The notes below the pieces were generated by a model. The model did not search any database and had not been told where the DNA came from. It was given only the letters and a program-made list of their open reading frames with translations. From the NCBI GenBank assembly GCA_035652815.1, contig DASRDB010000020.1:1-58705 (forward strand): a stretch of 58,705 bases of DNA, read 5' to 3'. Below are positions 38,772-58,705 of this stretch, in pieces; position 1 is the first letter of the stretch, and each line of letters begins with the position of its first letter. Origin of the DNA: Ktedonobacteraceae bacterium (GTDB lineage: Bacteria > Chloroflexota > Ktedonobacteria > Ktedonobacterales > Ktedonobacteraceae). The position numbers and the translations under genes were made by a program.

Positions 38772-38774
38772 CCT

Positions 38775-42981: not shown

Positions 42982-43265
42982 GGACGTATTACCTCCCTTG
43001 CAATGTTAACTCATGCAAGTATAACACATCCTATCCTTAAAATGTAGAATATATTCGCAGAATAAGGCAAATTGGGGAAAAAATCGAGTGACAAAAGATG
43101 TTCCACGAAAAGACAACGGGATATCATCATCTTCGTCACCGCGCCCACAGAGTGATGAAGCGATTCCCGTTAGTAGGAAGTATACCATATTCTCTTGTGT
43201 TACAACAGTGCTTTTACAACGAGTTTGCAGCATAGCGTCAAAAACGGTTTTTGGGGCAGATACTT

Positions 43266-44087
43266 TTACATTTCTTCGATCCTTGTCTGCCCCATGCCCA
43301 TTGTTGTCTTATAGCCAACGCCTGCATACTGCGCGAACGCTGCCAGCGTGGCAAGTTGTGGGGCGTAGCCGTTGGTAGTTTTCACCTGATAGCTACAGGT
43401 GCCTAGAAAACCTTTCTGTAGGGCATGAGGAAAATGCAGGCAGGAAGTATGGAGTTCGTAGTCGCTGATTGCTACCTGCTGGCTCACAAAGTCGCGCAGT
43501 CCCTGTTTATTAATGCGCAGTATTTCGGGCGCGTAGCGATTCCAGGTGCGCATCAGACTATCCCAGACCAGAGAGGGTTCAGGAAAGAGCGCGAATTGCC
43601 GATTGCCCATGCTAAATGCGCATGGGCTGGCGAAACGCAGTGTAATAGTACGTTGCGCAGGTATAGCAGCCAGTGTTTGCCAGGAAGTGTGTCCCGCCCA
43701 ACCTGTAGGGTCGGTTTCGGCGGAAGAATACACCCGCGCCAGTTGAAATTCGGCCTGCCCCATCCTGAGCGTAATTGGAGAAGTCTCAAGAAAATAGCTG
43801 CTCAGGCACTGCCAGAGCGCGCCGCCATCAAGCAAGGTGATTCGGAGGCGATAGGGTTGCCCCGCCCGCAGTTGTAGCTGCCCATCGCGCACCAGCGCCC
43901 CATTCAACATGGACACGGTAAACGGTCGATAATCCGGTTCGTCATGCAAACGGGCAGCCAGGTCGGGCTGTACCTGCCGCACAAGATCAAGAAAGAGCGC
44001 GTGTGCCTGGTGGCCCGTTGTGGCTGGTATGTTTGTGCTTTCCAGGGCGTGAAGTTCGAGGGTGATAGAGTAGAGGAGGTTGGTCAT
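43266..44087 (-). CDS. cas6: CRISPR-associated endoribonuclease Cas6
   Basis: The C-terminal glycine-rich loop 'GVGYKTTMGMGQ' is typical of Cas6. 273 aa. Last gene of the cas effector operon. Confidence 0.7.
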   Translation of the reverse strand: MTNLLYSITLELHALESTNIPATTGHQAHALFLDLVRQVQPDLAARLHDEPDYRPFTVSMLNGALVRDGQLQLRAGQPYRLRITLLDGGALWQCLSSYFLETSPITLRMGQAEFQLARVYSSAETDPTGWAGHTSWQTLAAIPAQRTITLRFASPCAFSMGNRQFALFPEPSLVWDSLMRTWNRYAPEILRINKQGLRDFVSQQVAISDYELHTSCLHFPHALQKGFLGTCSYQVKTTNGYAPQLATLAAFAQYAGVGYKTTMGMGQTRIEEM

Positions 44088-46516
44088 TAATCGTCATCCC
44101 AATCAAAAATATGACTATCTGCTCTCCGGCCAACGAATTTTGCTCTGATAATATTGCTTTCATATGAGACGAGCAATGCTGCTGAACCTAACACGATAGT
44201 ATAGGTATGTTCACCTTCATTAGCGAAATCGACTCTCAGAGTGTTTGTGAATAATGAGGTTGTCTTTTGTAACCGTGCTAATGCGAGTGCTTCTGAGCCA
44301 ACGGCAGGCACAGCATAAAACGTAATATAGTTCTGTTCGAATAGGTTATTCAGTTCCGGCGGTATAAGTCCAGAGTCAGACTGTAGTCTAAAGCCGTTCC
44401 TGGCAGCTAGTTTACTGCAATATCGTGCTTCCCATTTTGCTTTTGTAGATGGTGAACCATTAAGGTAGAAATGTATGTTTAAAGGCTGCTCACGTAGCTG
44501 TTTGATTTTGCAAAAGAGTTTTATTTGCTTATCAAGAGCTATTCCTGATCGTTCTGTAAGTTTATCTAATTGCTGTTGGTCAACATTAAGCCAATCAGCA
44601 ATATAATTTTGCACAATATGCAATGCAGAATAAACAGTATACTCTGACGTAGCTAAAAATCCGGACGGATCATGGGCCAATGCTGATGGTGGCTGAAAAT
44701 TGTCACGAAAATTAAATCGGACATCAGCAGTATAAAACTCTTCTAACTCAGCCCATCGTTTTTTTTCTGCATCCACCGTTTTATGGCTTTTTAGCAAGGC
44801 CAGCTCTACTTTTTTCGACTGATTATGATCAATAGTATTTAGTGTATCCAGATCAATGTCCCGTTGTTCATCGAGCGTGCGCATAATGACGCTCGCAGGA
44901 CCAAATGTGAATTTCTCAGAATTTTTTTCGTGAAGGAGTTCAGGCAGGTGAGATTTTATGATTAAATAACGCTGCGTATTGGAAAGAAGATTTCTAAAGC
45001 TCGCTGTTTTTTTTGTTCCATAAGCCTGTACAATTGCTTGATACAATTTTTCTGCTTGATCTTTTTGCCCAGTTGGAAGTGCTTTCCATATGTTAAAAAT
45101 AGGTAGGAATGCCTCCGCAATTGCCCCGCTATTAATGTAAGCAAAGATGCCATTTTTTTGTGGAAGTATACTATTAATAAGTTTGTTCAGGTGCCTTCTT
45201 TCAATGCGTTGATTCGCAATCTCGTTTAATTCTGTTAACAATTGGTCAGGAACTACTGCCCAAACATCGCTTGGAAAGTAATACTCTTCCTTGCCTAATA
45301 CTCTTCCAGCTCTGCCCAACCGTTGAATAGATTCATCTGAACTACGAGCATCGAATACGAGAAAATCAATACTTTGTCGTTTTATCCCTGGCCGCGAAAA
45401 GTTATAGCCAATATCGACTGTTGGAGTAGCTAATAGCAAACGAGCAAGTTTATGTTGTTCTCGCCAGATTGCTGATTCTGCTCCGGTAAGCCGCCCTAAG
45501 TGGGTATTGTTTTTCCCTCCATATTCTTGATAGATCTGATTGATACGCCACAGAGCGCTACTAATACATGCACCATTTCGATTTTGATGAAGCCATTCTT
45601 CTATAGTAGCTTTAACTTGAGATGCCAAACTCACAAGCCCGTTTTCGAGGACTTCTGTACTATACAGTCGTAGATGGACTGGAGCAAGAGCAGGTGTAGT
45701 TTGTAAGCCACCTGGAATATTCTCTGGCTCGATGTAAGCAATATCAAGGTCTAGTTGTTTGAGATAATGCCTCACTTGTTCTGATGGGGTTGCAGTGAGT
45801 AAACAGACCCGTCGCCCTTGCTTGAAAAATCCCCATTCACGTGAAAGCATGAGGAAAAAGAGAAAATTGGCCAACTGTTTTGCATTATAATAATGAAATT
45901 CGTCCACTACTATATAGCTGAAATTTAAGATAAAGTCCCGAAAAAGAACTCTTTGATCGTGAGGGTTTCCTAAACTATAAAGTGCGTAGTAAAAGATATC
46001 AGGGTTAATTACTAAGATATAAGGATGATGGCCTTGTATGTGGTATCCCTCGCTATCTGTCAGAACAACCCGTGGATCTTGTAACATTTGATGAAGACGG
46101 TCTCCCTGGCGTATAAATTTTTCACTTAAATGCTGCTGCGCTAAAGAGCGGATGGTGGCAGCATCAAGACGAAGGACAATATACGATAAATTATTTTGTT
46201 TGATAAAAGTCTGTATATCCTCCTCGTGTTGACGGAGCAATTCATTGGTAGGTGCGATAAATAGCACATTGGCATTAGTAGTATATCTATCTTTTTTATA
46301 AGTCTCATCCAGGTCTAAAAGACGAAGTAAAGCTGCTTTTGTTTTACCTGTGCCTGTGTTAAAACTGTTGACAACAATGTGTGCGGTTTTGTTCTGGTAG
46401 GTAAGCCACTGGTGATAGAGCGGCGGTGAGCCTAATGCGTCCGCTAATTTCGTGTAATTTTCGGCAAAAGGGTTGGCTAATGGCTCGTAGTGAGGTGCAA
46501 GCTCAAGTTGTATCAT
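44087..46516 (-). CDS. cas3: CRISPR-associated helicase Cas3' (SF2 DExH helicase with no HD nuclease domain)
   Basis: Walker A 'NTGTGKTKAAL', DExH 'VVDEFHYY', motif III 'LLTATP', motif VI 'QRLGRAGR'. No H...HD motif is present. Confidence 0.85.
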   Translation of the reverse strand: MIQLELAPHYEPLANPFAENYTKLADALGSPPLYHQWLTYQNKTAHIVVNSFNTGTGKTKAALLRLLDLDETYKKDRYTTNANVLFIAPTNELLRQHEEDIQTFIKQNNLSYIVLRLDAATIRSLAQQHLSEKFIRQGDRLHQMLQDPRVVLTDSEGYHIQGHHPYILVINPDIFYYALYSLGNPHDQRVLFRDFILNFSYIVVDEFHYYNAKQLANFLFFLMLSREWGFFKQGRRVCLLTATPSEQVRHYLKQLDLDIAYIEPENIPGGLQTTPALAPVHLRLYSTEVLENGLVSLASQVKATIEEWLHQNRNGACISSALWRINQIYQEYGGKNNTHLGRLTGAESAIWREQHKLARLLLATPTVDIGYNFSRPGIKRQSIDFLVFDARSSDESIQRLGRAGRVLGKEEYYFPSDVWAVVPDQLLTELNEIANQRIERRHLNKLINSILPQKNGIFAYINSGAIAEAFLPIFNIWKALPTGQKDQAEKLYQAIVQAYGTKKTASFRNLLSNTQRYLIIKSHLPELLHEKNSEKFTFGPASVIMRTLDEQRDIDLDTLNTIDHNQSKKVELALLKSHKTVDAEKKRWAELEEFYTADVRFNFRDNFQPPSALAHDPSGFLATSEYTVYSALHIVQNYIADWLNVDQQQLDKLTERSGIALDKQIKLFCKIKQLREQPLNIHFYLNGSPSTKAKWEARYCSKLAARNGFRLQSDSGLIPPELNNLFEQNYITFYAVPAVGSEALALARLQKTTSLFTNTLRVDFANEGEHTYTIVLGSAALLVSYESNIIRAKFVGRRADSHIFDWDDD

Positions 46517-47226
46517 AGTTTTTCCACTCCGTAGCGCATATCTGCGGGTAAGTAGGTATTCTGATCAATCTGCCAGAATTGTCCTCGCATCTGTACATCC
46601 CGTAGTATCGGTGCTGGATGGATATTGTAAGAGGAATAAACAAGCAAATTGTTTGTGTCAGCTAAATCAGTCGCATTCAGTAAGCTGTTGACTTTTACTT
46701 GCTCACGTTGGACTAACTGAGCCACCATTTTTGTCTGCCAGTCTATTTTTGCTTTGCTCATAAATTTTCCTAATCTGATGTAAGGCAAGAGTCGAGGACC
46801 CTTGCCTTCCTCAATCAGATGGTCACGGTCAAGCAAGTAAAAAGATGCCTTGCTTCCTAAACCCAGCATGCGAATACGACCGCCCTGTGGGTAATTCATT
46901 GCCCTGATTTTTTCAAGGGTAGTAGCAATGGCATTTTGAGCAAAACGAAAGTAGTAACTATCCGTTTGTCCGTTAAACCTTGTGATAACCATGCGCAAAC
47001 TACTAAAATCAGCAGGTGTAATATAGAGACCCTGCTCATTGAGTGGTGTAAGGTCTTCCTTGTAGCGCGGACCACCTCGCCCACGATAGGGAGAGTTACA
47101 TAGCCCAAGAGCATAGGTAAGGGCATAGTTCCCAATGAGCGGTTCGCTGGCATAAAGCGGGTCAATTTCACGACTAGCAAAGAATGTATGCTCACAGAGA
47201 GTCAGATTGGCAGGGTAAATGTGCAT
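46513..47226 (-). CDS. cas5: Cas5-family (Csc1-like) effector-complex subunit
   Basis: Size, position between the Cas7 and Cas3' genes, and a Gly-rich RAMP-like segment 'GLGSKASFYL'. Its stop overlaps the cas3' start (ATGA). Confidence 0.5.
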   Translation of the reverse strand: MHIYPANLTLCEHTFFASREIDPLYASEPLIGNYALTYALGLCNSPYRGRGGPRYKEDLTPLNEQGLYITPADFSSLRMVITRFNGQTDSYYFRFAQNAIATTLEKIRAMNYPQGGRIRMLGLGSKASFYLLDRDHLIEEGKGPRLLPYIRLGKFMSKAKIDWQTKMVAQLVQREQVKVNSLLNATDLADTNNLLVYSSYNIHPAPILRDVQMRGQFWQIDQNTYLPADMRYGVEKL

Positions 47227-47235
47227 GACTGCCTC

Positions 47236-48210
47236 CTATGATCTCCTGTAACTTGCCGTAAGGTTTTTCAGAGCCTCAACGAAGCCCATCTGCTCATAGT
47301 AAAGCTGACCAACTCCATGAAGCTCTGCTTCCAATTTTTCTCCCGTTAAAAGAACAGGTTTTTGGCTGAATATGCCTTTGAGTAGCGAATCGGTAGCGGA
47401 GAGCATCGCTCTCTCAACTTCCTGATCGTTAAGCGGAAATGGTAGTTCATCCTTGTTCTCTGGCTTGAGAATATCATGGACAGCCTGAGTAAGTTCCAGG
47501 TTGCTGAACAACTCACAATCACTAAAGGCTACGGCCACAATTTTGTTTTTGACTTTACCAAGTCTGCTTGAAATGGCTCCATAACGTTCGCTGCGGATGA
47601 TATTGCCGATGACATACTGTAATTCAACCAGCGTAACATCCTTAAGGGTTTCGATATCGAGGAAATGTGCTTGTGGACGCACATACTCATCTTTGTTAAT
47701 GCTCCTGCTTGCCTCGCCAGTTTCGGGATTACGCATCGTCCCATTATCAAATGTAGCATTAAATGTGCGGCGTCCAGCTACTTGAGCGCTAGCTCCAAGC
47801 GAATAGGCATCATCAGTAAATACTCGACTTTTTTGCGCCCCGTTGCCACCTGCTGCAAATCCGTAAAGGTAGCAATCTATGCACTTTTCGCAAGGAGCGT
47901 TAGTGTTGAGCATACAAATTTTGCCATCTTTGTTTTGCAGTAATAACCCATGCCGATTTAAAAATTCGCGTCCTTTTCGGCGTTCCACTGCAGTTTGTTT
48001 GCGCTTACTGATGACCACTCGCCTGATTGGCGTGGTATCAACAAGGCCAGCGCTCACTGTCTCTTTCACCAACTCCTCGCCGCTTCCCTCGGTACGAAAA
48101 ATGGTTTCTGATTCGGTCTTCCGAAGAATAAAGAGGCTGACATAATAGCCTTTGGGCATGTTGCTGTATTTTTCCAGCAGGTATTCTTTATAGTCTTCAA
48201 ACGCGGCCAT
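47236..48210 (-). CDS. cas7: Cas7-family (Csc2-like) backbone subunit
   Basis: 324 aa. Contains a C-x2-C-x2-C cluster 'CEKCIDCYLYGF' and a Gly-rich segment, as in type I-D Csc2. Operon position. Confidence 0.5.
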   Translation of the reverse strand: MAAFEDYKEYLLEKYSNMPKGYYVSLFILRKTESETIFRTEGSGEELVKETVSAGLVDTTPIRRVVISKRKQTAVERRKGREFLNRHGLLLQNKDGKICMLNTNAPCEKCIDCYLYGFAAGGNGAQKSRVFTDDAYSLGASAQVAGRRTFNATFDNGTMRNPETGEASRSINKDEYVRPQAHFLDIETLKDVTLVELQYVIGNIIRSERYGAISSRLGKVKNKIVAVAFSDCELFSNLELTQAVHDILKPENKDELPFPLNDQEVERAMLSATDSLLKGIFSQKPVLLTGEKLEAELHGVGQLYYEQMGFVEALKNLTASYRRS

Positions 48211-48247
48211 TTCTGAATATTCCTTTCTTGTGTGTACCTTTTAAGAG

Positions 48248-48700
48248 CTATTCATCTACATCCATTGACAATTGCTTTACCTCTTCTGCCTGCTCTGCAT
48301 CGACTTCTTCCTTTTCTCCCTCAGTTAAGGCATCCCGGTAGTAGGTGAGATAAGCGCTACGTATGAGTTTGTTCCGTGTGAGTAATCGATTAACATCACC
48401 TCCATTTGCCTTGTTTAGCACACCATCGAAGAATAAATCGACGTACTCACGGATGATGTCCTGCTTCCGCTCTCGTTTCTCTCTCCCTGGTTTGTACTTT
48501 GGCTCAGTTATAGCGTCAATGTGATCGAAAATTTGCCGTTCTGAAGCCCTCCGTACCAGGTCACGAACATCTTCTTTTGGCTCCCGCTCAAGATTCTCCA
48601 GGATGATATCTAGAGGCTTGAGGATGGAGTTGCGTTTGTTTGAGCGTCCTTTGATGCGCTCCCCAGCCGCAACGGTTGCCATTTGTTTTAATGGTTCCAT
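48248..48700 (-). CDS. small alpha-helical protein; candidate standalone Cas11 (small subunit)
   Basis: 150 aa, charged and helical. Starts 6 bp after the large-subunit stop, with an AAGGAG RBS inside the upstream gene's 3' end. Confidence 0.4.
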   Translation of the reverse strand: MEPLKQMATVAAGERIKGRSNKRNSILKPLDIILENLEREPKEDVRDLVRRASERQIFDHIDAITEPKYKPGREKRERKQDIIREYVDLFFDGVLNKANGGDVNRLLTRNKLIRSAYLTYYRDALTEGEKEEVDAEQAEEVKQLSMDVDE

Positions 48701-48706
48701 GGTCGT

Positions 48707-51385
48707 TTACTCCTTTACAATTTCAGCCAATAATGGGGCTACACGCTTGCTCAGGTAAAAAGCCAGGTTTTCGGAAGAAACTGGTTTACCTGCAATTTGG
48801 TTTTGTTGAACAGGATTCTTATTGGTTGTTTTATGTGCCGACTTCGCTTCCTGTGCCTTTTTTTCAATTGTGAGATCAACGATGTGATACACCGAGAGAG
48901 GATCATCGAGCAAAGACTCAGCCACCTCCACCACAAATTTGTCACGGTCTTCTATGTTCAAATTCAAGAGTTGAGATAGCTGTAATAATGCGGAAAGGCG
49001 CCTGACAATATTCTCATAAGCTGCATAACCCTGATCATCTAGCCGCTCGTTGTACCAATGATCTTTGCGTTTGATGTATTCCGCGCCGCCATCTCGTTGT
49101 TTCCCATCCCGGTATACTTCGACACTACGGTATGCGTCTGCTGGCAATAACCATCGCAAGTTGAGTGGCACACCATCGACAAAGAAGGCGAGCTTTTGCT
49201 CAACCATATATTCGTCAGTAAGTAGAGGGATGGGAGTACGTGACATCGCCACACGACAACCAAAGAAATCAGCAATCATTAGTGCTTGAGTAAGCGCAAA
49301 TAGAAATTGCTCTGTATAATTTTCTCCTGGTGCATTGAGAGGCAATGTTGGAGTATTACATATAGCTTCACTGAAATCCGGTACATTCAAGCCATTTACT
49401 TTTGTGGAATAACCGGTAAATGGTTGTGTGGAGTTATCAATGATTTGCTCGGCTCTTTTGACCGCCTCAGAACCGAGGTTGCGTTGAAGTTGAACTTCCC
49501 ACTGCTTGAAGTAGTTTTCCCTCTTTAAGAAGAAAGACGTATTATCTTCATGGCAAACTCTTTTTAAAGTGGAATAAAATGCATCCAGGTACGGCGCTGT
49601 GAAAAAGGAATAGGGGTAAAAGTGGAGATAGAAACTGGTATACAGTTCCCGTAACTTTTTTTCCCCTCTTTTTTGTTTCCTATTGTAGGTAACACATGTC
49701 AGTTTTTCAAGAAGGAATAGAATTCGGCATATTGGACAAACATTCCTTTTGGGGTCTCTGGCTCCTCCTCTCAAACGATTGCTAAATACCTGTACCCCTA
49801 TACTTGCTGGCACTTCTGATTCCATTAACTCTACAGTTTTTAAGGATGAGCTACAAGTACAACATTGTTTGTACTGATCTTTAGAATACCGGCGTAAATG
49901 CAATGCAAAATCTCGTACTATTCCGGTACCTCCGATCTCAAGATTGTTAGTGAGATAGTTCAGGTACTCATCGCTTTGGACTGCTGAAACTTGCTCTCCT
50001 GTCAAAGCAGATAAATCTGCTAGCATTCGCTCAAAAAGAACTTCTATATCATAAGTGCTGTCACGTGCAATGAAGTAGCCGCGTCGAAAGCTATCCACCT
50101 GATTGTAGAGAGCATAATGATCTGCTGGTAGGTTGAGTAAACCATACACGTGAGTCCAGGGATCGCAATTATATTTCTTTTTTAGTTCTTTCTTGAGGTG
50201 ATCTTGCAGTAAGTTACGATATGCTAGAGCAAGTTCTCCCCGTTTGAACAAACTTTGTTCAAGGGGAACTATTGGTTTTGAACTGTTAATTAGGGCATTA
50301 GCCTGCAATGCTATAACAGGATCAGGATTCCTGGCCGCATTTTCAATATCTGGGAGTAACCGCTGGTTATATTCTTCATGCCATTTTGTCTTCCAGCTTT
50401 TCTGCTCAACACGCTTACGCAGTACATATAATATGTCAATGTAACTGGCTCCACTTTCTATAGCAGAGTCAGGTACTTTGATTCCAGATGATTTTGCCTT
50501 GATTAATTGATAAAGGCCATTTCTCTGCTTATCAGCGATGATCTGCGCGAGTTGCTCTGCGACATGCAATGTATCGCTATGAGACCAGGTAAATGGCTCG
50601 CGTTCTGGTATCAAGTAGGCAACACCATCTGGATAGTAAAGTAAATCCGCGATAACTGTTTGATTATTGTGGGTATGCCTCTCCTTGAGATACTTAACCA
50701 CAGTATTGTGGATGAGGTTGCTAAGCAGCCCTCGATTTTCTCCTAGCCGGTGTGTTACCCAACGCCAGCGTCTTTCTGAGATAGCATTAACTTGTGCTAA
50801 AAAATTGTCTTTGTGGTGGTTTTCAGCCAATGTGTGGGAAAGATCAAGATTATCGACAGCATACATGAGTTTCCCAAGTTCAAGTAGCCTTTGATAGTTT
50901 AGTCGATAATTATGGTTCTTTTGATTGAGGTCGATTAATGGGGCGCTATCGTGTTGGTGAAGAATAGTAATGAGCCAGATATCTTCGAGATATTCTTGCC
51001 ATTCAGGAAAGAAACGCCGGAAGTCAATGCGCTCTAATTCGGTTTGAATATTTTCAGGAGTCGCAATATTTGTGTAGCTTAATTTTACATCCCTGCCCCC
51101 ATAAGGCGGAATTTTATTGATATCGTGGATAGTGAATGCTCCAAAAAGCACCTGTTCTTCAAGATCATTTATTTCGGCTACCCCTGCCAGCCGCAATTTG
51201 TGGAACGTATTAATGCCATCGAGTATATGTGTATAATAGTTTTGTCCCTGTTTATTGCCTCCCTGAACAATGCGTCGGTAGTCAGTCATAGGACCATTAG
51301 CTACCTCTTGATAATAGGCTGCAAGTAAGCCTACCTGTTCTGCTTCCTCGATATCTACTAACCAGGCTAGTTCAATTTCCGACAT
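48707..51385 (-). CDS. cas10d: Cas10d-like large subunit with N-terminal HD nuclease domain (Cas3''-Cas10d fusion)
   Basis: HD motif I 'YTHILDGI' and motif II 'FTIHDINK' (compare Cas3 'LHDIGK'). A Cys cluster 'CCTCSSS...CPICRI' (zinc-finger-like) lies in the C-terminal half. 892 aa. Confidence 0.65.
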   Translation of the reverse strand: MSEIELAWLVDIEEAEQVGLLAAYYQEVANGPMTDYRRIVQGGNKQGQNYYTHILDGINTFHKLRLAGVAEINDLEEQVLFGAFTIHDINKIPPYGGRDVKLSYTNIATPENIQTELERIDFRRFFPEWQEYLEDIWLITILHQHDSAPLIDLNQKNHNYRLNYQRLLELGKLMYAVDNLDLSHTLAENHHKDNFLAQVNAISERRWRWVTHRLGENRGLLSNLIHNTVVKYLKERHTHNNQTVIADLLYYPDGVAYLIPEREPFTWSHSDTLHVAEQLAQIIADKQRNGLYQLIKAKSSGIKVPDSAIESGASYIDILYVLRKRVEQKSWKTKWHEEYNQRLLPDIENAARNPDPVIALQANALINSSKPIVPLEQSLFKRGELALAYRNLLQDHLKKELKKKYNCDPWTHVYGLLNLPADHYALYNQVDSFRRGYFIARDSTYDIEVLFERMLADLSALTGEQVSAVQSDEYLNYLTNNLEIGGTGIVRDFALHLRRYSKDQYKQCCTCSSSLKTVELMESEVPASIGVQVFSNRLRGGARDPKRNVCPICRILFLLEKLTCVTYNRKQKRGEKKLRELYTSFYLHFYPYSFFTAPYLDAFYSTLKRVCHEDNTSFFLKRENYFKQWEVQLQRNLGSEAVKRAEQIIDNSTQPFTGYSTKVNGLNVPDFSEAICNTPTLPLNAPGENYTEQFLFALTQALMIADFFGCRVAMSRTPIPLLTDEYMVEQKLAFFVDGVPLNLRWLLPADAYRSVEVYRDGKQRDGGAEYIKRKDHWYNERLDDQGYAAYENIVRRLSALLQLSQLLNLNIEDRDKFVVEVAESLLDDPLSVYHIVDLTIEKKAQEAKSAHKTTNKNPVQQNQIAGKPVSSENLAFYLSKRVAPLLAEIVKE

Positions 51386-51462
51386 CTGTTATTGCGACCT
51401 TTCAAGAATAATTTTTCTTTCTCAATCCCCATTATACCCATCCCCAATAAGCGCAATTGCGC

Positions 51463-52455
51463 TCACTCCTTCGGAGTATGATACATGTTGTAGAGGTTGA
51501 GGCTGATGGCGCGGAAAATCTCTACAAGTTCGGGCGGTTCCAGTATCTCGCAGTGGTCGGCGTAACCGATCAGGATGCGGCGCGCTTCGAACAGGTCGGT
51601 GATGGTGGCGGTGATGGTGGCCGAACCATCTCCGGCATGCGTCACCTCCTGGTTTTCAAAGTGCTTGCTGACACTGTTGCGGGCGATGACCGCGTGCAGT
51701 TTGTATTTCAACCTGTATGCGACCGGTTTAGGTCGGCTGGTTGCGATTCTGGTTGGCAGCACTTCGGCGCTGCCGGGAACAATATAGTCCAGGCGAAATT
51801 GCAGGCGGCTCTCGCGCCGGAGACTCCAACCGTACAGGTAGACATGCCCATGCTCATATTTGAGCGGTTCCGGCTCGACCACATGATTCAGTTCTTTGCC
51901 ATGTTTGGGAGAACGGTAACGAAAGGCGAGTTGTTGTCTCTGGCGAATGGCGCGTTCGATTTTTTTAACCGTTTCCTGGTCCGCGTTGCGGTAATCGGTT
52001 GTCTCGTGCAGGTCGATGCTGAAAGGATTCCGCAGCGACTCCACCATTTTTTGCTGCTCGAGAGGCAGGCGGCTGACAAGGGAGGTGAGCAGGGCGCGAA
52101 TCTCATCCGCGTGCAGGATGGCGCTCTGGTCAAAGGTGTTGAACAGGGTTGCGAGCGCGGTAAGCTGTTCCTGGTTGAGCGAGAGGCCGAATGGAGAATT
52201 TTGCCAGGTATACTCTTTGCGCTGTTTATCAAATATGACCTGGCAACCCAGCGCTCGCAAAGCCTGGATATCACGGCGAAATTGATACAGCCTTTGCTTT
52301 TCATGGGCAGGTCCATCCTTTGCCTCGTCGCTGAAAAGTCGTTCTTTGTCCAGGATAGCGATGAGGTTATCAGTGGTGCGCGGGCCTGTATGGAGCAAAA
52401 CGAGCAGACGCAGACGCCGTCGCGCCGCCCGTTCGCTGGCTGTATCACTTTTCAT
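51463..52455 (-). CDS. WYL-domain transcriptional regulator (HTH-WYL-WCX type), cas-associated
   Basis: N-terminal winged helix 'RRLRLLVLLHTG.RTTDNLIAIL'. Central WYL-like block 'HVVEPEPLKYEHGHVYLYGWSLRRESRLQFRLDYI'. Lies 77 bp upstream of cas10d on the same strand. Confidence 0.65.
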   Translation of the reverse strand: MKSDTASERAARRRLRLLVLLHTGPRTTDNLIAILDKERLFSDEAKDGPAHEKQRLYQFRRDIQALRALGCQVIFDKQRKEYTWQNSPFGLSLNQEQLTALATLFNTFDQSAILHADEIRALLTSLVSRLPLEQQKMVESLRNPFSIDLHETTDYRNADQETVKKIERAIRQRQQLAFRYRSPKHGKELNHVVEPEPLKYEHGHVYLYGWSLRRESRLQFRLDYIVPGSAEVLPTRIATSRPKPVAYRLKYKLHAVIARNSVSKHFENQEVTHAGDGSATITATITDLFEARRILIGYADHCEILEPPELVEIFRAISLNLYNMYHTPKE

Positions 52456-52501
52456 GAAAAGCGCGCCTTCTAGCCTGTGAATATTCAAAATGATTCGGAA
52501 T

Positions 52502-52581
52502 GTTGTAGGGACGCGCTTCATGCGTTCACCGATCCTGAAGGCAGGTGACAGGCAGGACGCGATGAAGCGCGTCCCTACAAC
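52502..52581. promoter_or_regulatory. 20-bp perfect inverted repeat (gttgtagggacgcgcttcat ...40 bp... atgaagcgcgtccctacaac) in the divergent intergenic region between the WYL regulator and cas4
   Basis: Read directly. Same GTAGGGACGCG palindrome family as 32008-32278. Candidate operator or divergent-promoter element. Confidence 0.4.
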
Positions 52582-52652
52582 GTTACGCTATCGTAGTACG
52601 GTCGCGTTTATTTGTCAACAAACAAGCGTAAAACGAGTAGGAAAGGAATGAA

Positions 52653-53348
52653 ATGAAACGTGGAGAGATGAGCGGAGAAGCATCAAGACAGGAGCGTGAA
52701 TGGCTGCCGATTTCTTTGCTCAATGCCTATGCCTATTGCCCGCGTCGATTTTACTATGAATTTACGATGGCGGAGATGGTAGTGAATGAGCATGTGCTTG
52801 AGGGACAGATGCTGCACGAGCGCGTTGATCTGCCGGGAAATACGTGGCGTGACGAGAAGGTGCAACTGCGGCATATCTATCTTTGCGCCCCTGCTCTGGG
52901 CATTGTGGGGTACTGCGATCTGCTCGAGCGAGAGGGAACGGGGCATGATCTCGCCGCGCTGGCAATGCAAAATCGGCTCTATCCTGTCGAGTACAAGAAG
53001 GGCAAAATGGGGAAGTGGCTCTCCGATCATACCCAGCTGTGCGCGCAGGCGCTGGCACTGGAAGAAGTGTTGCAGATTCCAGCCTGGAGTATACGACGTG
53101 GCTACGTGTTTTATGTTGGCTCCGCTCGCCGCGATGAAGTAAGCATCGATGCCGCGTTGCGAGAAGGCACGCTGGCGACCATTGAGGAAGCGCGTGCGCT
53201 TGCCCTGCGCGATACGCCGCCCTTGCCCATCACGAACTGGCGCAAGTGCCGCGATTGCTCGCTTGAGCCAATTTGCCTTCCCCGCGAAGTCCTGGCATTA
53301 CAATCACATAAAGTAGGAGCAGAGCATGGCGATAGTGTATCTGACTGA
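52653..53348 (+). CDS. cas4: CRISPR-associated exonuclease Cas4 (RecB-like nuclease with 4-Cys Fe-S cluster)
   Basis: N-terminal Cys 'YAYCPRRFYYE' and the C-terminal 'CRDCSLEPIC' triad give the Cas4 C-x(n)-C-x2-C-x5-C pattern. RecB motif 'DLL..E......VEYK'. Confidence 0.85.
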   Translation: MKRGEMSGEASRQEREWLPISLLNAYAYCPRRFYYEFTMAEMVVNEHVLEGQMLHERVDLPGNTWRDEKVQLRHIYLCAPALGIVGYCDLLEREGTGHDLAALAMQNRLYPVEYKKGKMGKWLSDHTQLCAQALALEEVLQIPAWSIRRGYVFYVGSARRDEVSIDAALREGTLATIEEARALALRDTPPLPITNWRKCRDCSLEPICLPREVLALQSHKVGAEHGDSVSD

Positions 53349-54435
53349 ACAGCAATCCTGGGTAAACCGCGAGGGAGACTGCCTGATTGTGCATATTCCG
53401 GTGCGCGATGAAAATGGAAAGGCCTCTGGCAAGCGAGAACGAAAAAAGACCATTCCGCTTTTCAAAGTAGAAGAGGTCATTGTCATGGGCGATATCACCA
53501 TCAGCACGCCAGCGCTTGCCAGCCTCTTACAAGCGAAGGTGCAGATCACCTACTTGAGCAAATGGGGAGACTATCGCGGGACACTGAGTCCTGCTCTGAC
53601 ACGCAATAGCCTGCTGCGTATTGCTCAGCACAAAGCCTATGCCAATGGCGCGATGCGGCATCAGATCGCGCGCCGCTTTGTGATTGGCAAACTGCGTAAT
53701 ATGCGCACCATGTTAATGCGCTACCAGCGCCAGTATCCTGATCCGGTGATTGGAGAACAGGTGGATTGCCTGAAACGCTGTATTCTTGCCGCTCAGCAGA
53801 CCGCCTATCACGAGGAGGGTATAGCGACCAGCGAACTTGATGCTGAGATGGATGGCAGGAGCGAGCCTGATAGAATGCATGGTCTCGGTTCGCTGATTGG
53901 ATGCGAGGGTGCGGGTAGTGCTGCCTATTTTAGCGTCTTTGACAGGCTTATCAAATGTGATTGGCAGCATGGCTTTACTAAGCGCTCTCGCCGCCCGCCG
54001 ACTGATCCGGTGAACGCGCTCTTAAGTTACGGCTATGTGGTGCTGGCCTCGCAAGTTGCCAGCATGCTTGCGCTGGTTGGCTTTGATCCCTATGTAGGCT
54101 ACCTGCATGCCTCGCGCTACGGCAAGCCCGCCCTTGCGCTTGACCTGATGGAAGAATTTCGTCCTTTAATTGTTGACTCGGTCGTACTCAGCCTGCTCAA
54201 TAATCGCCAGCTTGAGGCGAAAGATTTTGAGTTTGAACTGAACAGTTATCGTATGACCGATGGCACAAAGCGACTGTTTCTGGAGAAATTTGAGGAGCGT
54301 ATGCAGGAAGTTATTATTCATCCTGTGTTTGGAAACAAAGCCACATATCGCCATTGTATTGAAACGCAAGGCAGACTGCTTGCCAAATATTTAACAGGTG
54401 AAATTGAGCAGTACATGCCCTTTACCGTTCGTTAA
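53326..54435 (+). CDS. cas1: CRISPR-associated integrase Cas1
   Basis: 369 aa. Overlaps the cas4 end by 23 bp and precedes cas2. Cas1-like N-terminus 'VYLTEQQSWVNREGDCLIV' and a conserved His/Glu-rich C-terminal half. Confidence 0.85.
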   Translation: MAIVYLTEQQSWVNREGDCLIVHIPVRDENGKASGKRERKKTIPLFKVEEVIVMGDITISTPALASLLQAKVQITYLSKWGDYRGTLSPALTRNSLLRIAQHKAYANGAMRHQIARRFVIGKLRNMRTMLMRYQRQYPDPVIGEQVDCLKRCILAAQQTAYHEEGIATSELDAEMDGRSEPDRMHGLGSLIGCEGAGSAAYFSVFDRLIKCDWQHGFTKRSRRPPTDPVNALLSYGYVVLASQVASMLALVGFDPYVGYLHASRYGKPALALDLMEEFRPLIVDSVVLSLLNNRQLEAKDFEFELNSYRMTDGTKRLFLEKFEERMQEVIIHPVFGNKATYRHCIETQGRLLAKYLTGEIEQYMPFTVR

Positions 54436-54445
54436 GGAGAGAAAG

Positions 54446-54763
54446 ATGGGTCAGGGAAACGGGGGACACGCGCGGGGAGTCAGGCAAAGCAGCTTTTACG
54501 TCGTTGCCTATGATATCCCTGATGACAAAAGGCGCACACAGGTACATAAAATCTTAAAAGGCTTCGGCACCTGGACCGAATTCTCGTTGTTTGAATGTTT
54601 TCTCACAAAAAAAGAGGTGCTGCAAATGAAAGCCAAACTCGCCAAACACCTTGATCCCAGCGAGGACCGCGTGCGCATCTACACGCTCTGCGAAACCTGC
54701 CTGGACAAAATAGAAACCGCAGGCATCCCCGAACCAGTTGAAGAAACCAGCTATCTTGTCTAA
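54446..54763 (+). CDS. cas2: CRISPR-associated endoribonuclease Cas2
   Basis: 'FYVVAYDIPDDKRRTQVHKILKGFGTWTEFSLFEC' is the canonical Cas2 N-terminal block. AGGAG RBS. The ATG at 54446 lies 10 bp after the cas1 stop. Confidence 0.85.
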   Translation: MGQGNGGHARGVRQSSFYVVAYDIPDDKRRTQVHKILKGFGTWTEFSLFECFLTKKEVLQMKAKLAKHLDPSEDRVRIYTLCETCLDKIETAGIPEPVEETSYLV

Positions 54764-54871
54764 GAAAAGCAAAGACATTCATGTCCCATCATTTTGCGAG
54801 AGGCGGAGCTGTAGTACTTTTGAGCGTAGCCTCTCGCAACGCTGCCCCCGCTCAGGAGGCTCATTCAGGGG

Positions 54872-54901
54872 TTGCCTATTTTCAACCCCATGTGTTATAA
54901 T
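54872..54901 (+). promoter_or_regulatory. putative sigma70-type leader promoter for the CRISPR array (TTGCCT-18 bp-TATAAT)
   Basis: ttgcct at 54872-54877 and tataat at 54896-54901, about 70 bp upstream of the first repeat. Confidence 0.35.
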
Positions 54902-54971
54902 ACTTTTCAGGGCCACCCTCTCGCAAAACGTCCCTTCAAGAGGCTCAAGTACTCGCCTCACAAGGTCGGCG

Positions 54972-57900
54972 GTTGGAAAGAGGTTTGACGCGATTGGGCG
55001 ATTGAAACTAAGGATGTATAGTGATTTTCGTCAAAGGAGAGTTGTTGGAAAGAGGTTTGACGCGATTGGGCGATTGAAACTGGCTAGTGATGTTGTGGAA
55101 TTGCCACAAGAAACACAAGGTTGGAAAGAGGTTTGACGCGATTGGGCGATTGAAACTTTTTGGAGGATTCCGCCGGAGCGTTCCGTAAAATCGATGGTTG
55201 GAAAGAGGTTTGACGCGATTGGGCGATTGAAACAGCGCAAATAGCAAAGTTGGAGATGATCTTAAGGGAGTTGGAAAGAGGTTTGACGCGATTGGGCGAT
55301 TGAAACTGCCACTCTTCAATGTGTGCTAGTTCACGGTTTGAGGTTGGAAAGAGGTTTGACGCGATTGGGCGATTGAAACGCGGATTATGGGAGTGGTTGG
55401 AAGTGAATGAAGAAATGTTGGAAAGAGGTTTGACGCGATTGGGCGATTGAAACCTATCGCGCATTCCTCAGAGGGCAAGACCCGCTTGATAGTTGGAAAG
55501 AGGTTTGACGCGATTGGGCGATTGAAACGAGATGTGTAAAGGAAAGCCATTGGGCGTAGAGTCTATTGGTTGGAAAGAGGTTTGACGCGATTGGGCGATT
55601 GAAACAAAGTCAACATCTACCAGTTTGAAGAGACCTACGACACCGTTGGAAAGAGGTTTGACGCGATTGGGCGATTGAAACGAAGTTGGCTTGTGTGACG
55701 TGTGCCTCAGAGCCATTCAGTTGGAAAGAGGTTTGACGCGATTGGGCGATTGAAACAACAGACTACACCAACGAAAGAAACAGATTCTCGCGTCGTTGGA
55801 AAGAGGTTTGACGCGATTGGGCGATTGAAACATCGTTGTCGAAATCGGGCCGATTCCGAACGTATCGTTGGAAAGAGGTTTGACGCGATTGGGCGATTGA
55901 AACTACATCGATTCGCTGTTTTATATAAGCGATGAGCCGGAGTTGGAAAGAGGTTTGACGCGATTGGGCGATTGAAACCGCTCCTTTATCGAGGATGGCG
56001 GCGTGTGCGTTGTTGGCATGTTGGAAAGAGGTTTGACGCGATTGGGCGATTGAAACACGGAAGCGGCGAGTGACTTCATCTATTTTTTCTTGGTTGGAAA
56101 GAGGTTTGACGCGATTGGGCGATTGAAACCGCATGTTCTGAATGTGGCTGTCCAGTTCGCTCGCTTCGAGTTGGAAAGAGGTTTGACGCGATTGGGCGAT
56201 TGAAACCGAGGAGATCTTCATTTACGAGTTTGTCAGGACCTATATGTTGGAAAGAGGTTTGACGCGATTGGGCGATTGAAACCCCCCTCCGATCTCCGGG
56301 TTGCTTATCTCAAGCTGCGGTTGGAAAGAGGTTTGACGCGATTGGGCGATTGAAACCGCAATAAGTCGCTCGATTCACCCCCCTCAATTTCCAGCGTTGG
56401 AAAGAGGTTTGACGCGATTGGGCGATTGAAACGTTATAGGGAATGGGCAGCCGCTTGAAACGGCGCGTGTTGGAAAGAGGTTTGACGCGATTGGGCGATT
56501 GAAACTCCGATTTGCGCGCCGAGGCCTCAGCAGACCGACCAGGTTGGAAAGAGGTTTGACGCGATTGGGCGATTGAAACAATTTCAACGTGAGCTTAGTC
56601 GAGCCAACAGTGGGAAGTTGGAAAGAGGTTTGACGCGATTGGGCGATTGAAACCTTTTCAACAGCAATTCCTTATTCCTACCTACGGCTTTTGTTGGAAA
56701 GAGGTTTGACGCGATTGGGCGATTGAAACCCGTTGGCTATTGGACTTCTCAGATTTTCAGTCTGAGCGGTTGGAAAGAGGTTTGACGCGATTGGGCGATT
56801 GAAACACAGTTACAGGCACCGTCAGCGTAGATATGATCTACGGTTGGAAAGAGGTTTGACGCGATTGGGCGATTGAAACAAGCAACAACACCGCAGGATG
56901 CGCCTGCGGTGTTTACGTTGGAAAGAGGTTTGACGCGATTGGGCGATTGAAACTCATTCACATCGAATGGCACCCCCGTGTCAAAATTCGTTGGAAAGAG
57001 GTTTGACGCGATTGGGCGATTGAAACTAGGCTGTAAAGGCTTTCCAGTTCTGGTAGGCCACTTTGGGTTGGAAAGAGGTTTGACGCGATTGGGCGATTGA
57101 AACTCTTCGCCGTTTTCTTTGAGGAAAGGTTGCAATTCCGTTGGAAAGAGGTTTGACGCGATTGGGCGATTGAAACATTGCCAGCACTGCGGAAAGCAGA
57201 TTCCGCCTGAAAGTTGGAAAGAGGTTTGACGCGATTGGGCGATTGAAACCTTTCTCCTCCTACTAGCCAACGGCGGGCGCGTTGCGTTGGAAAGAGGTTT
57301 GACGCGATTGGGCGATTGAAACGTACGCAGCTTGCGTGTATTCGCTTCTACGAGCGTATCGTTGGAAAGAGGTTTGACGCGATTGGGCGATTGAAACACG
57401 ACTCCCTACGGCTAAAGCCGAGGGCTTCTCAGGGTTGGAAAGAGGTTTGACGCGATTGGGCGATTGAAACCTGCTCCAAATCACACCGGATGGCAACGCT
57501 CTTTTGGAGGTTGGAAAGAGGTTTGACGCGATTGGGCGATTGAAACATGGCAGATACGGACATCACGAGCCGAGCCACAAGGGAGTTGGAAAGAGGTTTG
57601 ACGCGATTGGGCGATTGAAACAAAATCAATAATAAACCAGACTGGAAAAATATTGCTGTTGGAAAGAGGTTTGACGCGATTGGGCGATTGAAACATCATA
57701 GGAGCTATCCGACCAGGGCATCTGCCCAAGTTGGAAAGAGGTTTGACGCGATTGGGCGATTGAAACTCTGATGTCTAATACACCTGGAATTTTAGATAAG
57801 GGCGTTGGAAAGAGGTTTGACGCGATTGGGCGATTGAAACTTCAATGGATTGTTGATACAGGGTATTTGCGGCCCGGTTGGAAAGAGGTTTGACGCGATT

Positions 57901-58705
57901 GGGCGATTGAAACCTGGCTGGCTTATTTACTTACGTATACCCGCCTGAGAGGTTGGAAAGAGGTTTGACGCGATTGGGCGATTGAAACTTTCTTCGACAT
58001 GGATACAAACCCTTTCCTCACGCCTCGTTGGAAAGAGGTTTGACGCGATTGGGCGATTGAAACCTGGCACCGGACTGGCAACAGGTCAAATCGAGGCCGG
58101 TTGGAAAGAGGTTTGACGCGATTGGGCGATTGAAACCTGCGCTGCTGCGCAGACGCAGGCCTCTCCCACGCGCAGTTGGAAAGAGGTTTGACGCGATTGG
58201 GCGATTGAAACGTAGCGCGATTTCCCGCTCTGGAGGTTCAGCACGCCTAGTTGGAAAGAGGTTTGACGCGATTGGGCGATTGAAACGTCTTTGTCGATAT
58301 CGATCCGCACACCCTGAATGTGGTTGGAAAGAGGTTTGACGCGATTGGGCGATTGAAACACAAGGGCAAGGGGAGGCCTTGCCGGTTGAAGTACAGGGTT
58401 GGAAAGAGGTTTGACGCGATTGGGCGATTGAAACATATGGTACTCCATAATGGAGTTGTACAGCCAGCACGTTGGAAAGAGGTTTGACGCGATTGGGCGA
58501 TTGAAACCTCCTATTGTTATTAAGTACTCCATTAAATCGGTTTGCACGTTGGAAAGAGGTTTGACGCGATTGGGCGATTGAAACCTGGAAGGGTCGGGCG
58601 CTGCAATGCCCCTGTCTGGCGTTGGAAAGAGGTTTGACGCGATTGGGCGATTGAAACCGTGATATGAGTGGAAGACAGCCAACACGTGTACTACGTTGGA
58701 AAGAG
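54972..58705 (+). CRISPR. CRISPR array with 50 complete 37-bp repeats plus a truncated 51st at the window edge. Repeat GTTGGAAAGAGGTTTGACGCGATTGGGCGATTGAAAC; spacers ~35-39 bp
   Basis: Repeats were counted by eye from 54972, 55044, 55119 ... 58621, with a partial repeat at 58695. Period 72-77 bp. The repeat ends in ATTGAAAC (the typical 8-nt crRNA 5'-handle source), consistent with plus-strand transcription from the cas2-proximal leader. Confidence 0.95.

What the first reader, a model, noticed from the sequence alone, without database searches (positions are those of the whole stretch)
43266..58705. Complete type I-D-like CRISPR-Cas locus with non-canonical gene order
The signature combination is present: a helicase-only Cas3' with no HD motif, plus an HD nuclease domain carried on the N-terminus of a Cas10-like large subunit (H..D and HDINK motifs, Cys-rich zinc-finger region). 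That combination is the hallmark of subtype I-D. The effector operon order here is cas10d - small ORF - cas7 - cas5 - cas3' - cas6 on the minus strand. The canonical I-D order is cas3'-cas10d-csc2-csc1-cas6-cas4-cas1-cas2. Here cas4-cas1-cas2 and the array lie on the opposite strand, divergent from a WYL regulator. This looks like a rearranged or variant I-D module.
Basis: partly seen in the sequence, partly recalled or inferred. Interest (0 to 1): 0.75.

Follow-up and report, generated by a model that had tools for sequence, protein, structure and literature searches.

The report
Type I-D CRISPR with separate Cas11d
This is an intact, ordinary type I-D CRISPR-Cas immune locus of a Ktedonobacteraceae soil bacterium whose gene order is normal for its lineage, and its one unusual feature is that the small subunit Cas11d, normally made from inside the cas10d gene, is encoded here by its own gene.

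Summary
All genes sit at the stated coordinates and pass type I-D-specific models: Cas3' helicase without an HD domain, Cas10d with an N-terminal HD domain and zinc finger, Cas7d/Csc2, Cas5d/Csc1, Cas6, Cas4, Cas1d and Cas2. There is a WYL regulator and an array of at least 50 identical 37-nt repeats that runs off the window.

The "rearranged" reading is not supported. The order cas10d-cas7d-cas5d-cas3'-cas6 occurs in all 79 related loci I fetched (Chloroflexota, Poribacteria, Herpetosiphon). It also occurs in a Nostoc plasmid, a Clostridium botulinum plasmid and haloarchaea. A 2023 review already notes that the order varies between lineages. NCBI already annotates these proteins as type I-D.

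The split defines a monophyletic Ktedonobacteria/Chloroflexia clade nested among fused forms, with the junction in all three reading frames. [quoted passage not shown] A haloarchaeon split independently.

Papers I could search describe Cas11d only as an internal translation product. Verdict: a modest architectural variant of a known subtype.

The parts
43266..44087 (-). cas6d, the pre-crRNA endoribonuclease (273 aa)
   Evidence: Pfam CRISPR_Cas6 at 3e-19 and Cas6_N at 1e-12. PADLOC Cas6d at 5e-45. NCBIfam TIGR01877 scores 53.3 bits, just below its cut-off of 58.65.
44087..46516 (-). cas3', a helicase-only Cas3 (809 aa) with no HD domain
   Evidence: TIGR03158 (type I-D Cas3') scores 162 bits against a cut-off of 69. 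Pfam gives only DEAD and ResIII. GTGKT at residue 55 and DEFH at residue 205.
46513..47226 (-). cas5d / csc1 (237 aa)
   Evidence: TIGR03159 scores 150 bits against a cut-off of 41. PADLOC Cas5d at 3e-63.
47236..48210 (-). cas7d / csc2 (324 aa), the backbone subunit
   Evidence: TIGR03157 scores 277 bits against a cut-off of 38. Pfam Csc2 at 5e-95.
48248..48700 (-). cas11d, a stand-alone small-subunit gene (150 aa). NCBI annotates it as a hypothetical protein (HZS79214.1).
48707..51385 (-). cas10d, the large subunit (892 aa), with an N-terminal HD (Cas3'') domain and a zinc finger but without the C-terminal Cas11 domain
   Evidence: TIGR03174 scores 97 bits against a cut-off of 60. It covers only positions 13-740 of the 859-position PADLOC profile. 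It has zero residues aligned to the 127-166-aa tail (127-156 in the lineage) present in all fused homologues. The AF2 model has pLDDT 82, and its top Foldseek hits are 7sba_I, 7sbb_I and 6thh_C. Invariant residues are H53, H87, D88, H143 and D178. There is no GGDD motif.
51463..52521 (-). WYL/WCX-domain transcription regulator, lying upstream of cas10d on the same strand. The longest ORF is 352 aa; NCBI's start gives 330 aa, ending near 52455.
   Evidence: Pfam WYL at 2e-12 and WCX at 9e-11. PADLOC WYL at 5e-22. NCBI length. A WYL gene sits in the same position in most related loci.
52522..52652 (.). Intergenic region between the divergent WYL gene and cas4. It holds one promoter-like site for the minus strand and one copy of a dispersed hairpin repeat.
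   Evidence: TTGACA-17-TACGAT at 52618-52590 on the minus strand. This is a consensus match only: 23 sites were found in the region against 16.8 expected. The hairpin repeat lies at 52554-52575.
52653..53348 (+). cas4 (231 aa)
   Evidence: TIGR00372 scores 110 bits against a cut-off of 65. Pfam Cas_Cas4.
53326..54435 (+). cas1d (369 aa)
   Evidence: TIGR04093 (type I-D Cas1d) scores 399 bits against a cut-off of 385.
54398..54763 (+). cas2 (longest ORF 121 aa; the true start may lie further downstream)
   Evidence: TIGR01573 scores 57 bits against a cut-off of 24.5, matching residues 33-118.
54764..54971 (+). CRISPR leader with a promoter-like site
   Evidence: TTGCCT-18-TATAAT with an upstream TG at 54872-54901. 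This is a consensus match only.
54972..58705 (+). CRISPR array: 50 identical repeats GTTGGAAAGAGGTTTGACGCGATTGGGCGATTGAAAC plus a partial 51st, and 50 unique spacers. It continues beyond the window.
   Evidence: The repeat ends in ATTGAAAC, which resembles the ...ACTGAAAC end of the Synechocystis I-D repeat quoted in PMC9123187.

Best explanation

**Inferred from studied I-D systems, not shown here:**
- Cas6d cuts the array transcript and leaves an 8-nt ATTGAAAC 5' handle.
- Cas5d, several copies of Cas7d, Cas10d and Cas11d assemble on the crRNA into Cascade.
- Cas10d reads the PAM.
- After R-loop formation the Cas3' helicase is recruited, and the HD site of Cas10d cuts the DNA.
- Cas4-Cas1-Cas2 add spacers, and the WYL protein regulates expression.

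**Shown here:** the small subunit Cas11d is made from its own gene, with its own ribosome-binding site. It is not made from an internal start codon inside cas10d, and Cas10d ends exactly where the Cas11 domain would begin.

**Shown by comparison:** this state arose in an ancestor of a Ktedonobacteria/Chloroflexia clade. A stop codon appeared between the pre-existing internal ribosome-binding site and start codon of a fused cas10d.

**Inferred consequence:** the minor filament of this Cascade is built only from free Cas11d subunits, as in type III, I-A and I-E complexes, with no covalently attached first unit on the large subunit.
For: **Subtype.** All I-D-specific NCBIfam models pass their cut-offs, and Pfam and PADLOC agree. 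Predicted structures match solved Cas10d and Cas11d best.

**Clean split.**
- Cas10d maps to profile positions 13-740 and the small ORF to 738-856.
- Split proteins have 0-5 residues where fused ones have 127-166 (127-156 in the lineage).
- The C-terminal 133 residues of Cas10d show no profile similarity to Cas11d (hhalign probability 0.35%).

**Not an artefact.**
- The split occurs in 20 of the 83 fetched loci, including the cultured Thermogemmatispora tikiterensis T81.
- The gap between the cas10d stop and the cas11d ATG is 4-21 nt in 15 of 18 resolved junctions (three calls were unreliable), and the junction occupies all three reading frames, mostly with AAGGAG in the last codons of cas10d.
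- 79 protein clusters (90% identity) of 106-166 aa exist.
- There are 34 full-length stand-alone representatives at 50% identity, against 44 fused ones.
- Against the closest loci (L001, L005), Cas11d is better conserved than Cas10d (73-79% against 58-60% identity).

**Derived state.**
- The split clade is monophyletic in 100 of 100 neighbour-joining bootstraps. It is nested among fused forms, with fused cyanobacterial and archaeal sequences outside it.
- All 55 fused relatives keep an in-frame start codon at or near the homologous position, and 44 of the 55 also have an AAAGGAGG-like ribosome-binding site.

**Integrity.** All ORFs are intact, the catalytic and helicase motifs are present, and all 50 repeats are identical.
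Against: - No expression or activity data exist for this locus.
- No protospacer was found, so no PAM could be derived. The evidence for that is: no significant phage match (best E 0.3), three spacer scans of viral contigs, and no self-targets in the window.
- The stoichiometry of the minor filament is pure inference.
- The tree is neighbour-joining on one protein with few outgroups, so the polarity (fission rather than an ancestral unfused state) is likely but not proven.
- In this window the stop codon of cas10d and the ATG of cas11d are in the same frame, 6 nt apart, so occasional read-through to a fused protein cannot be excluded for this genome. It is impossible in relatives whose junctions are in other frames.
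- The low G+C of cas10d through cas3' (0.40-0.47, against 0.55 for the flanks) remains unexplained.
Confidence: 0.88

Rival explanations
1. The cas10d/cas11d split is a sequencing or assembly error, or a recent inactivating nonsense mutation. On this view the locus is a decaying I-D system.
For: In this window the two ORFs are in the same frame and separated by a single TAA plus two codons. Some related metagenome-assembled loci (L012, L064) are riddled with frameshifts.
Against: The same split occurs in 20 loci from different species, with junctions in all three frames and a conserved ribosome-binding site and ATG. There are dozens of stand-alone protein clusters. Against the closest loci (L001, L005), Cas11d is more conserved than Cas10d. 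Every other cas gene here is intact, and the 50 repeats are identical.
Confidence: 0.03
2. The separate cas11d gene is the ancestral, type III-like state of type I-D, retained in this clade. The fused cas10d-cas11d of other lineages would then be the derived state.
For: [quoted passage not shown] My tree is neighbour-joining with limited outgroups.
Against: The split clade is nested inside fused Chloroflexota/Poribacteria sequences. Fused forms also lie outside it (C. botulinum, Nostoc, Synechocystis, Chlorohelix, Halorubrum), so an ancestral split would need several independent fusions at the same point. The split Halococcus protein has a fused close relative in Halorubrum, 47% identical over the Cas11 part.
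Confidence: 0.07
3. The locus is a recent mosaic. On this view a foreign, low-G+C interference cassette (cas10d through cas3') replaced the resident one, between a resident cas6 and the WYL/adaptation module, and this swap would explain the unusual layout.
For: G+C is 0.40-0.47 for cas10d, cas11d, cas7d, cas5d and cas3'. It is 0.55 for cas6d, WYL, cas4 and the rest of the window. Locus L020 shows the same contrast.
Against: Identity to related loci rises and falls in parallel across all ten genes, so no gene set has a different nearest relative. In all relatives cas6, WYL and cas4 are somewhat richer in G+C than cas3' and cas10d, so part of the contrast is a family trait. The layout itself is shared with the whole subclade.
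Confidence: 0.15

Closest known systems
Synechocystis sp. PCC 6803 type I-D system (pSYSA CRISPR1; Cascade structures 7SBA/7SBB)
   Same: It has the same protein set: Cas3' without an HD domain, Cas10d with an HD domain, Cas7d, Cas5d, Cas6, Cas4, Cas1d, Cas2 and a WYL regulator. Its repeat is also 37 nt and ends in ...TGAAAC. The predicted folds of Cas10d and Cas11d here match its solved chains best.
   Different: In Synechocystis cas3' comes first and the WYL gene is divergent from it. Its Cas11d is translated from an internal start in cas10d, and the 975-aa Cas10d carries a Cas11 domain. Here cas3' follows cas5d, the WYL gene is on the same strand as cas10d, the adaptation module is inverted, and cas11d is a gene of its own. 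Sequence identity is low: only the HD region aligns by phmmer (E 7e-11).
Fused-Cas10d type I-D loci of Chloroflexota, Poribacteria and Herpetosiphon aurantiacus DSM 785
   Same: They have an identical effector order, (WYL)-cas10d-cas7d-cas5d-cas3'-cas6, and their Cas10d is 29-37% identical. An internal ribosome-binding site and start codon sit at the position where cas11d begins here.
   Different: Their Cas10d is about 920-990 aa and includes the Cas11 domain. They have no separate small gene. Their cas4-cas1-cas2 lies downstream of cas6 on the same strand, and cas4 and cas1 are often fused.
Halococcus dombrowskii plasmid type I-D locus (NZ_CP095009)
   Same: Its cas10d is also split, into an 833-aa gene and a 145-aa gene that corresponds to the Cas11 part.
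   Different: It is archaeal, cas6 comes first, and the regulator is Csa3. The split arose independently, because its relative Halorubrum lacusprofundi has a fused 1034-aa Cas10d. NCBI labels both pieces as cas10d.
Type III, I-A and I-E effector complexes with a separately encoded Cas11 (Csm2/Cmr5, Csa5, Cse2)
   Same: The small subunit is a separate gene product that forms the minor filament (PMC9881144).

Membership tests
CRISPR-Cas subtype I-D | Cas10d (Csc3) large subunit carrying an N-terminal HD (Cas3'') nuclease domain | tested here: met
   TIGR03174 scores 96.7 bits against a cut-off of 60. The HD region aligns to Synechocystis Cas10d, with HDINK opposite HDYDK. H53, H87, D88, H143 and D178 are invariant in 36 homologues. 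The model's best matches are the solved Cas10d structures.
CRISPR-Cas subtype I-D | Separate Cas3' helicase that lacks the HD domain | tested here: met
   TIGR03158 scores 162.3 bits against a cut-off of 69.1. Pfam gives only DEAD and ResIII at E <= 0.01. Helicase motif I starts at residue 55, which leaves no room for an N-terminal HD domain.
CRISPR-Cas subtype I-D | Csc2 (Cas7d) and Csc1 (Cas5d) subunits | tested here: met
   TIGR03157 scores 276.9 against a cut-off of 38, and TIGR03159 scores 150.1 against 41.4. Pfam Csc2 at 5e-95.
CRISPR-Cas subtype I-D | Inactivated cyclase palm in Cas10d (no GGDD motif) | tested here: met
   No GG[DE][DE] motif occurs anywhere in the 892-aa protein. This is a motif check only; no activity was tested.
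CRISPR-Cas subtype I-D | Cas1 of the I-D (CYANO) branch, together with cas4, cas2 and an adjacent array | tested here: met
   TIGR04093 scores 399.1 against a cut-off of 385. Cas4 and Cas2 pass their models. The array has 50 repeats.
CRISPR-Cas subtype I-D | Cas6 endoribonuclease | tested here: met
   Pfam CRISPR_Cas6 scores 69.9 against a cut-off of 25. PADLOC Cas6d at 5e-45. The general NCBIfam Cas6 model falls just short, 53.3 against 58.65.
CRISPR-Cas subtype I-D as described in the literature (McBride et al. 2020; review PMC10212523) | Cas11d produced by internal translation from within cas10d, with Cas10d carrying a C-terminal Cas11 domain | tested here: not met
   Cas10d stops at profile position 740 of 859, and the remainder is a separate ORF. 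This is a described property of studied I-D systems, not a classification criterion. It therefore marks a variant and does not exclude membership.
CRISPR-Cas subtype I-D, reference operon layout | Order cas3'-cas10d-csc2-csc1-cas6-cas4-cas1-cas2 | tested here: not met
   The order here is cas10d-cas11d-cas7d-cas5d-cas3'-cas6, with the adaptation genes inverted. Order is not defining: the same order is seen in 79 of 79 related loci and in Nostoc and C. botulinum, and with cas6 first in haloarchaea.
CRISPR-Cas subtype I-D | GTN PAM and DNA interference that depends on Cas3' and the Cas10d HD site | not testable with these tools
   No protospacer was found.

The most novel reading that the evidence does not exclude
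A whole clade of type I-D systems in Ktedonobacteria and Chloroflexia, and independently at least one haloarchaeon, has turned the gene-within-a-gene cas11d back into a free-standing gene by placing a stop codon between the internal ribosome-binding site and the start codon. This yields a natural I-D Cascade whose large subunit has no Cas11 nucleation domain. It would be the first documented case of the fusion-to-two-genes reversion that McBride et al. proposed as one way the separate cas11 genes of other type I subtypes arose. It would also be a natural test of whether the tethered Cas11 domain is needed for assembly.
Probability: 0.55. Interest if true: 0.5.

Novelty: new variant of a known kind. 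Interest (0 to 1): 0.35.

Why it matters
As a type I-D locus this is routine, and NCBI already annotates it as such.

The stand-alone cas11d matters modestly for three reasons.

1. **Evolution.** It bears on a question the I-D literature leaves open: how separate and embedded cas11 genes are related in evolution. The review PMC10212523 says the lineage of Cas11 in type I systems is unknown. McBride et al. leave open reversion against repeated fusion. Here the fission point coincides with the internal translation start that fused relatives still carry.

2. **Mechanism.** It offers natural complexes in which the large subunit lacks the tethered Cas11 domain that was proposed to nucleate the minor filament. 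The role of that domain becomes testable.

3. **Annotation and engineering.** The gene is currently labelled "hypothetical" or treated as a Csc3 fragment. Eukaryotic use of type I-D editors needs Cas11d expressed separately, and these loci supply it ready-made.

Tried and rejected
- **Phage matches.** Searching the whole array against 50,697 phage records in distant mode gave only a chance-level 32-nt hit (E 0.3).
- **Viral contig scans.** Three scans used spacers 1-3 with every sixth base left free. None found a match, so no PAM could be derived. I stopped there because the yield looked poor.
- **Spacers against local sequence.** Spacers compared with the rest of the window and with all fetched loci gave only 12-nt chance matches.
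- **Rfam.** No CRISPR-DR or other RNA family matched in 42500-56000.
- **Repeat folding.** The repeat folds no better than shuffled sequence (z -0.47).
- **Direct sequence search.** phmmer of the small ORF against PDB sequences found nothing. Its identity came from profiles and fold comparison instead.
- **Cas11-like remnant in Cas10d.** I tested whether the C-terminal helices of Cas10d (residues 760-892) are a diverged Cas11 domain. hhalign gave a probability of 0.35%, so I rejected this.
- **Module swap.** I tested whether a swap explains the G+C contrast. Per-gene identities to relatives run in parallel, so this is not supported.
- **ORF at 43006-43233.** It has no family match and an implausible sequence, so I treat it as non-coding.
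- **Cas8b match.** A marginal Cas8b match of Cas10d (E 0.006, residues 490-570) lies in the zinc-finger region. It does not challenge the Cas10d assignment.

Full report
**What is in the sequence**

- Minus strand: cas6 (43266-44087), a helicase of 809 aa (44087-46516), cas5d (46513-47226), cas7d (47236-48210), a 150-aa ORF (48248-48700), an 892-aa protein (48707-51385) and a WYL/WCX regulator (51463-52521).
- Plus strand: cas4, cas1 and cas2 (52653-54763), a 208-nt leader, and a CRISPR array from 54972 to the end of the window.

The array has 50 identical 37-nt repeats (GTTGGAAAGAGGTTTGACGCGATTGGGCGATTGAAAC) and a partial 51st. Its spacers are unique and 35-41 nt long. Exact protein look-ups show that the window comes from a Ktedonobacteraceae metagenome-assembled genome. 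NCBI already names the Cas10d, Cas7d and Cas3' of that genome as type I-D, and labels the 150-aa product a hypothetical protein.

**Subtype**

Every type I-D-specific NCBIfam model passes its curated cut-off.

| Protein | Bits | Cut-off |
|---|---|---|
| Cas3' | 162 | 69 |
| Csc1 | 150 | 41 |
| Csc2 | 277 | 38 |
| Csc3/Cas10d | 97 | 60 |
| Cas1d | 399 | 385 |

Pfam and PADLOC agree.
- **Helicase.** It has GTGKT and DEFH motifs and matches no HD family.
- **Cas10d HD site.** H87 and D88 are invariant across 36 homologues, with H53, H143 and D178.
- **Other Cas10d features.** It has a conserved four-cysteine cluster and no GGDD cyclase motif.
- **Fold.** Its AlphaFold model (pLDDT 82) finds the three solved Cas10d structures as its only significant Foldseek matches.

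The I-D assignment stands.

**Gene order**

A scan of one genome per species with a Cas10d alignment returned 79 distinct loci, mostly from Chloroflexota and Poribacteria. Two cultured organisms are among them: Herpetosiphon aurantiacus DSM 785 and Thermogemmatispora tikiterensis T81.

I called ORFs in all loci and labelled them with phmmer, using the ten window proteins as queries. Every locus that extends far enough has the order (WYL)-cas10d-cas7d-cas5d-cas3'-cas6.

Annotated plasmid records extend the comparison.
- The same order occurs in Nostoc sp. UHCC 0302 and Clostridium botulinum, and with cas6 placed first in two haloarchaea.
- The cas3'-first order occurs in Synechocystis pSYSA and Chlorohelix.
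- A 2023 review states that the positions of cas3' and cas6 differ between I-D lineages (PMC10212523).

The order is therefore a lineage trait and not a rearrangement of this locus. The inverted cas4-cas1-cas2 module, divergent from the WYL gene, is narrower. It is seen in the window and in loci L001, L002, L005, L007, L008, L010, L011, L012 and L014. More distant split-type loci keep the adaptation genes downstream of cas6.

**The small ORF is a stand-alone Cas11d**

In studied I-D systems the small subunit Cas11d is translated from an internal start codon near the 3' end of cas10d. The C-terminal Cas11 domain of Cas10d and two free Cas11d subunits then form the minor filament (bioRxiv 10.1101/2020.04.18.045682; PMC9123187). 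Four lines of evidence show that the arrangement here is different.
- **Profile mapping.** The 892-aa Cas10d covers positions 13-740 of the 859-position PADLOC Cas10_Id profile. The 150-aa ORF covers positions 738-856.
- **Alignment to a fused relative.** BLASTP aligns Met1 of the ORF with internal Met813 of a fused 944-aa relative.
- **Missing tail.** In an 83-sequence alignment, all fused proteins have 127-166 residues (127-156 in the lineage) beyond the point where the window's Cas10d ends. All split proteins have 0-5.

The remaining C-terminal helices of Cas10d show no profile similarity to Cas11d.

**The split is real and conserved**

- Twenty of the 83 fetched loci have it.
- In 15 of 18 resolved junctions the cas10d stop lies 4-21 nt before the cas11d ATG (three start calls were unreliable). 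The junction occupies all three relative reading frames, mostly with an AAGGAG ribosome-binding site in the last codons of cas10d.
- The protein database holds 79 clusters of such proteins, 106-166 aa long, labelled as hypothetical or as Csc3.
- A profile search of 1.84 billion cluster representatives found 149 hits. Of these, 34 are full-length stand-alone proteins and 44 are fused proteins.
- Against the closest loci (L001, L005), Cas11d is 73-79% identical, against 58-60% for Cas10d.

**Direction of change**

A neighbour-joining tree of the shared Cas10d core recovers the bacterial split forms as one clade in 100 of 100 bootstraps. That clade is nested among fused Chloroflexota and Poribacteria sequences. 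Fused C. botulinum, Nostoc, Synechocystis, Chlorohelix and Halorubrum sequences lie outside it.

All 55 fused relatives keep an in-frame start codon at or near the position homologous to Met1 of Cas11d. In 44 of the 55 it is preceded by an AAAGGAGG-like site.

The simplest reading is that a stop codon arose between the internal ribosome-binding site and the start codon. Halococcus dombrowskii shows an independent split. Its 145-aa product is 47% identical to residues 876-1016 of the fused Halorubrum Cas10d.

The polarity rests on a simple tree with few outgroups. I rate the alternative, an ancestral unfused state, at about 7%.

**How it most likely works**

By homology, the system should act as a standard type I-D interference and adaptation system. 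Cas6d would process the crRNA. A Cas5d-Cas7d-Cas10d-Cas11d Cascade would form. Cas10d would read the PAM, Cas3' would be recruited, and the HD site of Cas10d would cut. All of this is inferred from studied systems, not shown here.

The specific prediction for this clade is a minor filament made only of free Cas11d, with no tethered first unit.

Promoter-like sites lie in the leader (54872-54901) and in the WYL-cas4 spacer (52618-52590). They are consensus matches only, barely above the shuffled expectation.

No protospacers were found, so the targets and the PAM are unknown.

**Novelty**

The papers I could search describe I-D Cas11d only as an internal translation product. [quoted passage not shown] The review says internal expression appeared widely conserved across all groups (PMC10212523). 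The 2025 classification update does not mention a split I-D variant in its text (PMC12669027).

I could not see the supplementary trees or the subscription literature, so prior notice cannot be excluded.

The locus as a whole is ordinary. The stand-alone cas11d is a modest, clade-wide architectural variant with some evolutionary and practical interest.

Noticed in passing
window 32011-32228 and 52554-52575: A short palindromic element, GGACGCGAT(T/G)(C/A)A(T/G)CGCGTCC, occurs four times in a cluster at 32.0-32.2 kb and once in the intergenic region between the WYL gene and cas4. That is 5 matches against 0.01 expected. It looks like a dispersed REP- or MITE-like hairpin repeat.
   Followed up: partly
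window 44087-51385 compared with its flanks: cas10d, cas11d, cas7d, cas5d and cas3' have G+C of 0.40-0.47. The adjacent cas6d (0.554), WYL gene (0.546), cas4 (0.557) and the rest of the window (0.554) are much higher. Locus L020 shows the same contrast. Per-gene identities to relatives give no sign of a module swap, so the cause is unexplained.
   Followed up: partly
L088 5051-7959 (Clostridium botulinum plasmid NZ_CP063961): In this I-D locus the HD (Cas3'') domain is a separate 188-aa gene upstream of a 765-aa cas10d. It matches residues 16-195 of the window's Cas10d. The large subunit can therefore also be split at its N-terminal end. In the same locus cas3' is annotated as two ORFs.
   Followed up: partly
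L086 5994-8929 (Halococcus dombrowskii plasmid NZ_CP095009): This is an independent archaeal split of cas10d into genes of 833 and 145 aa that overlap by 4 nt. NCBI annotates both as cas10d. The related Halorubrum lacusprofundi has a fused 1034-aa gene.
   Followed up: yes
L002 18664-22700 (Chloroflexia MAG JBPCPV010000037): A type III-B module (cmr2 with an mCpol domain, cmr3 and a RAMP gene) lies directly downstream of cas6d in a split-type I-D locus. This suggests the two systems share cas6 and the array.
   Followed up: no
L004 13968-15371: A Tn5-like transposase gene is inserted between cas7d and cas5d of a fused-type I-D locus in a 5.9-Mb genome.
   Followed up: no
window 38061-40418: An RNase III gene is followed directly by a 547-aa N6 DNA methyltransferase with a TaqI-like specificity domain. 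No obvious restriction partner appeared among the ORFs I scanned.
   Followed up: no
window 43006-43233: A 75-aa ORF lies just downstream of cas6d, with G+C of 0.395, no family match and an implausible sequence. It is probably non-coding spacer sequence rather than a gene.
   Followed up: partly
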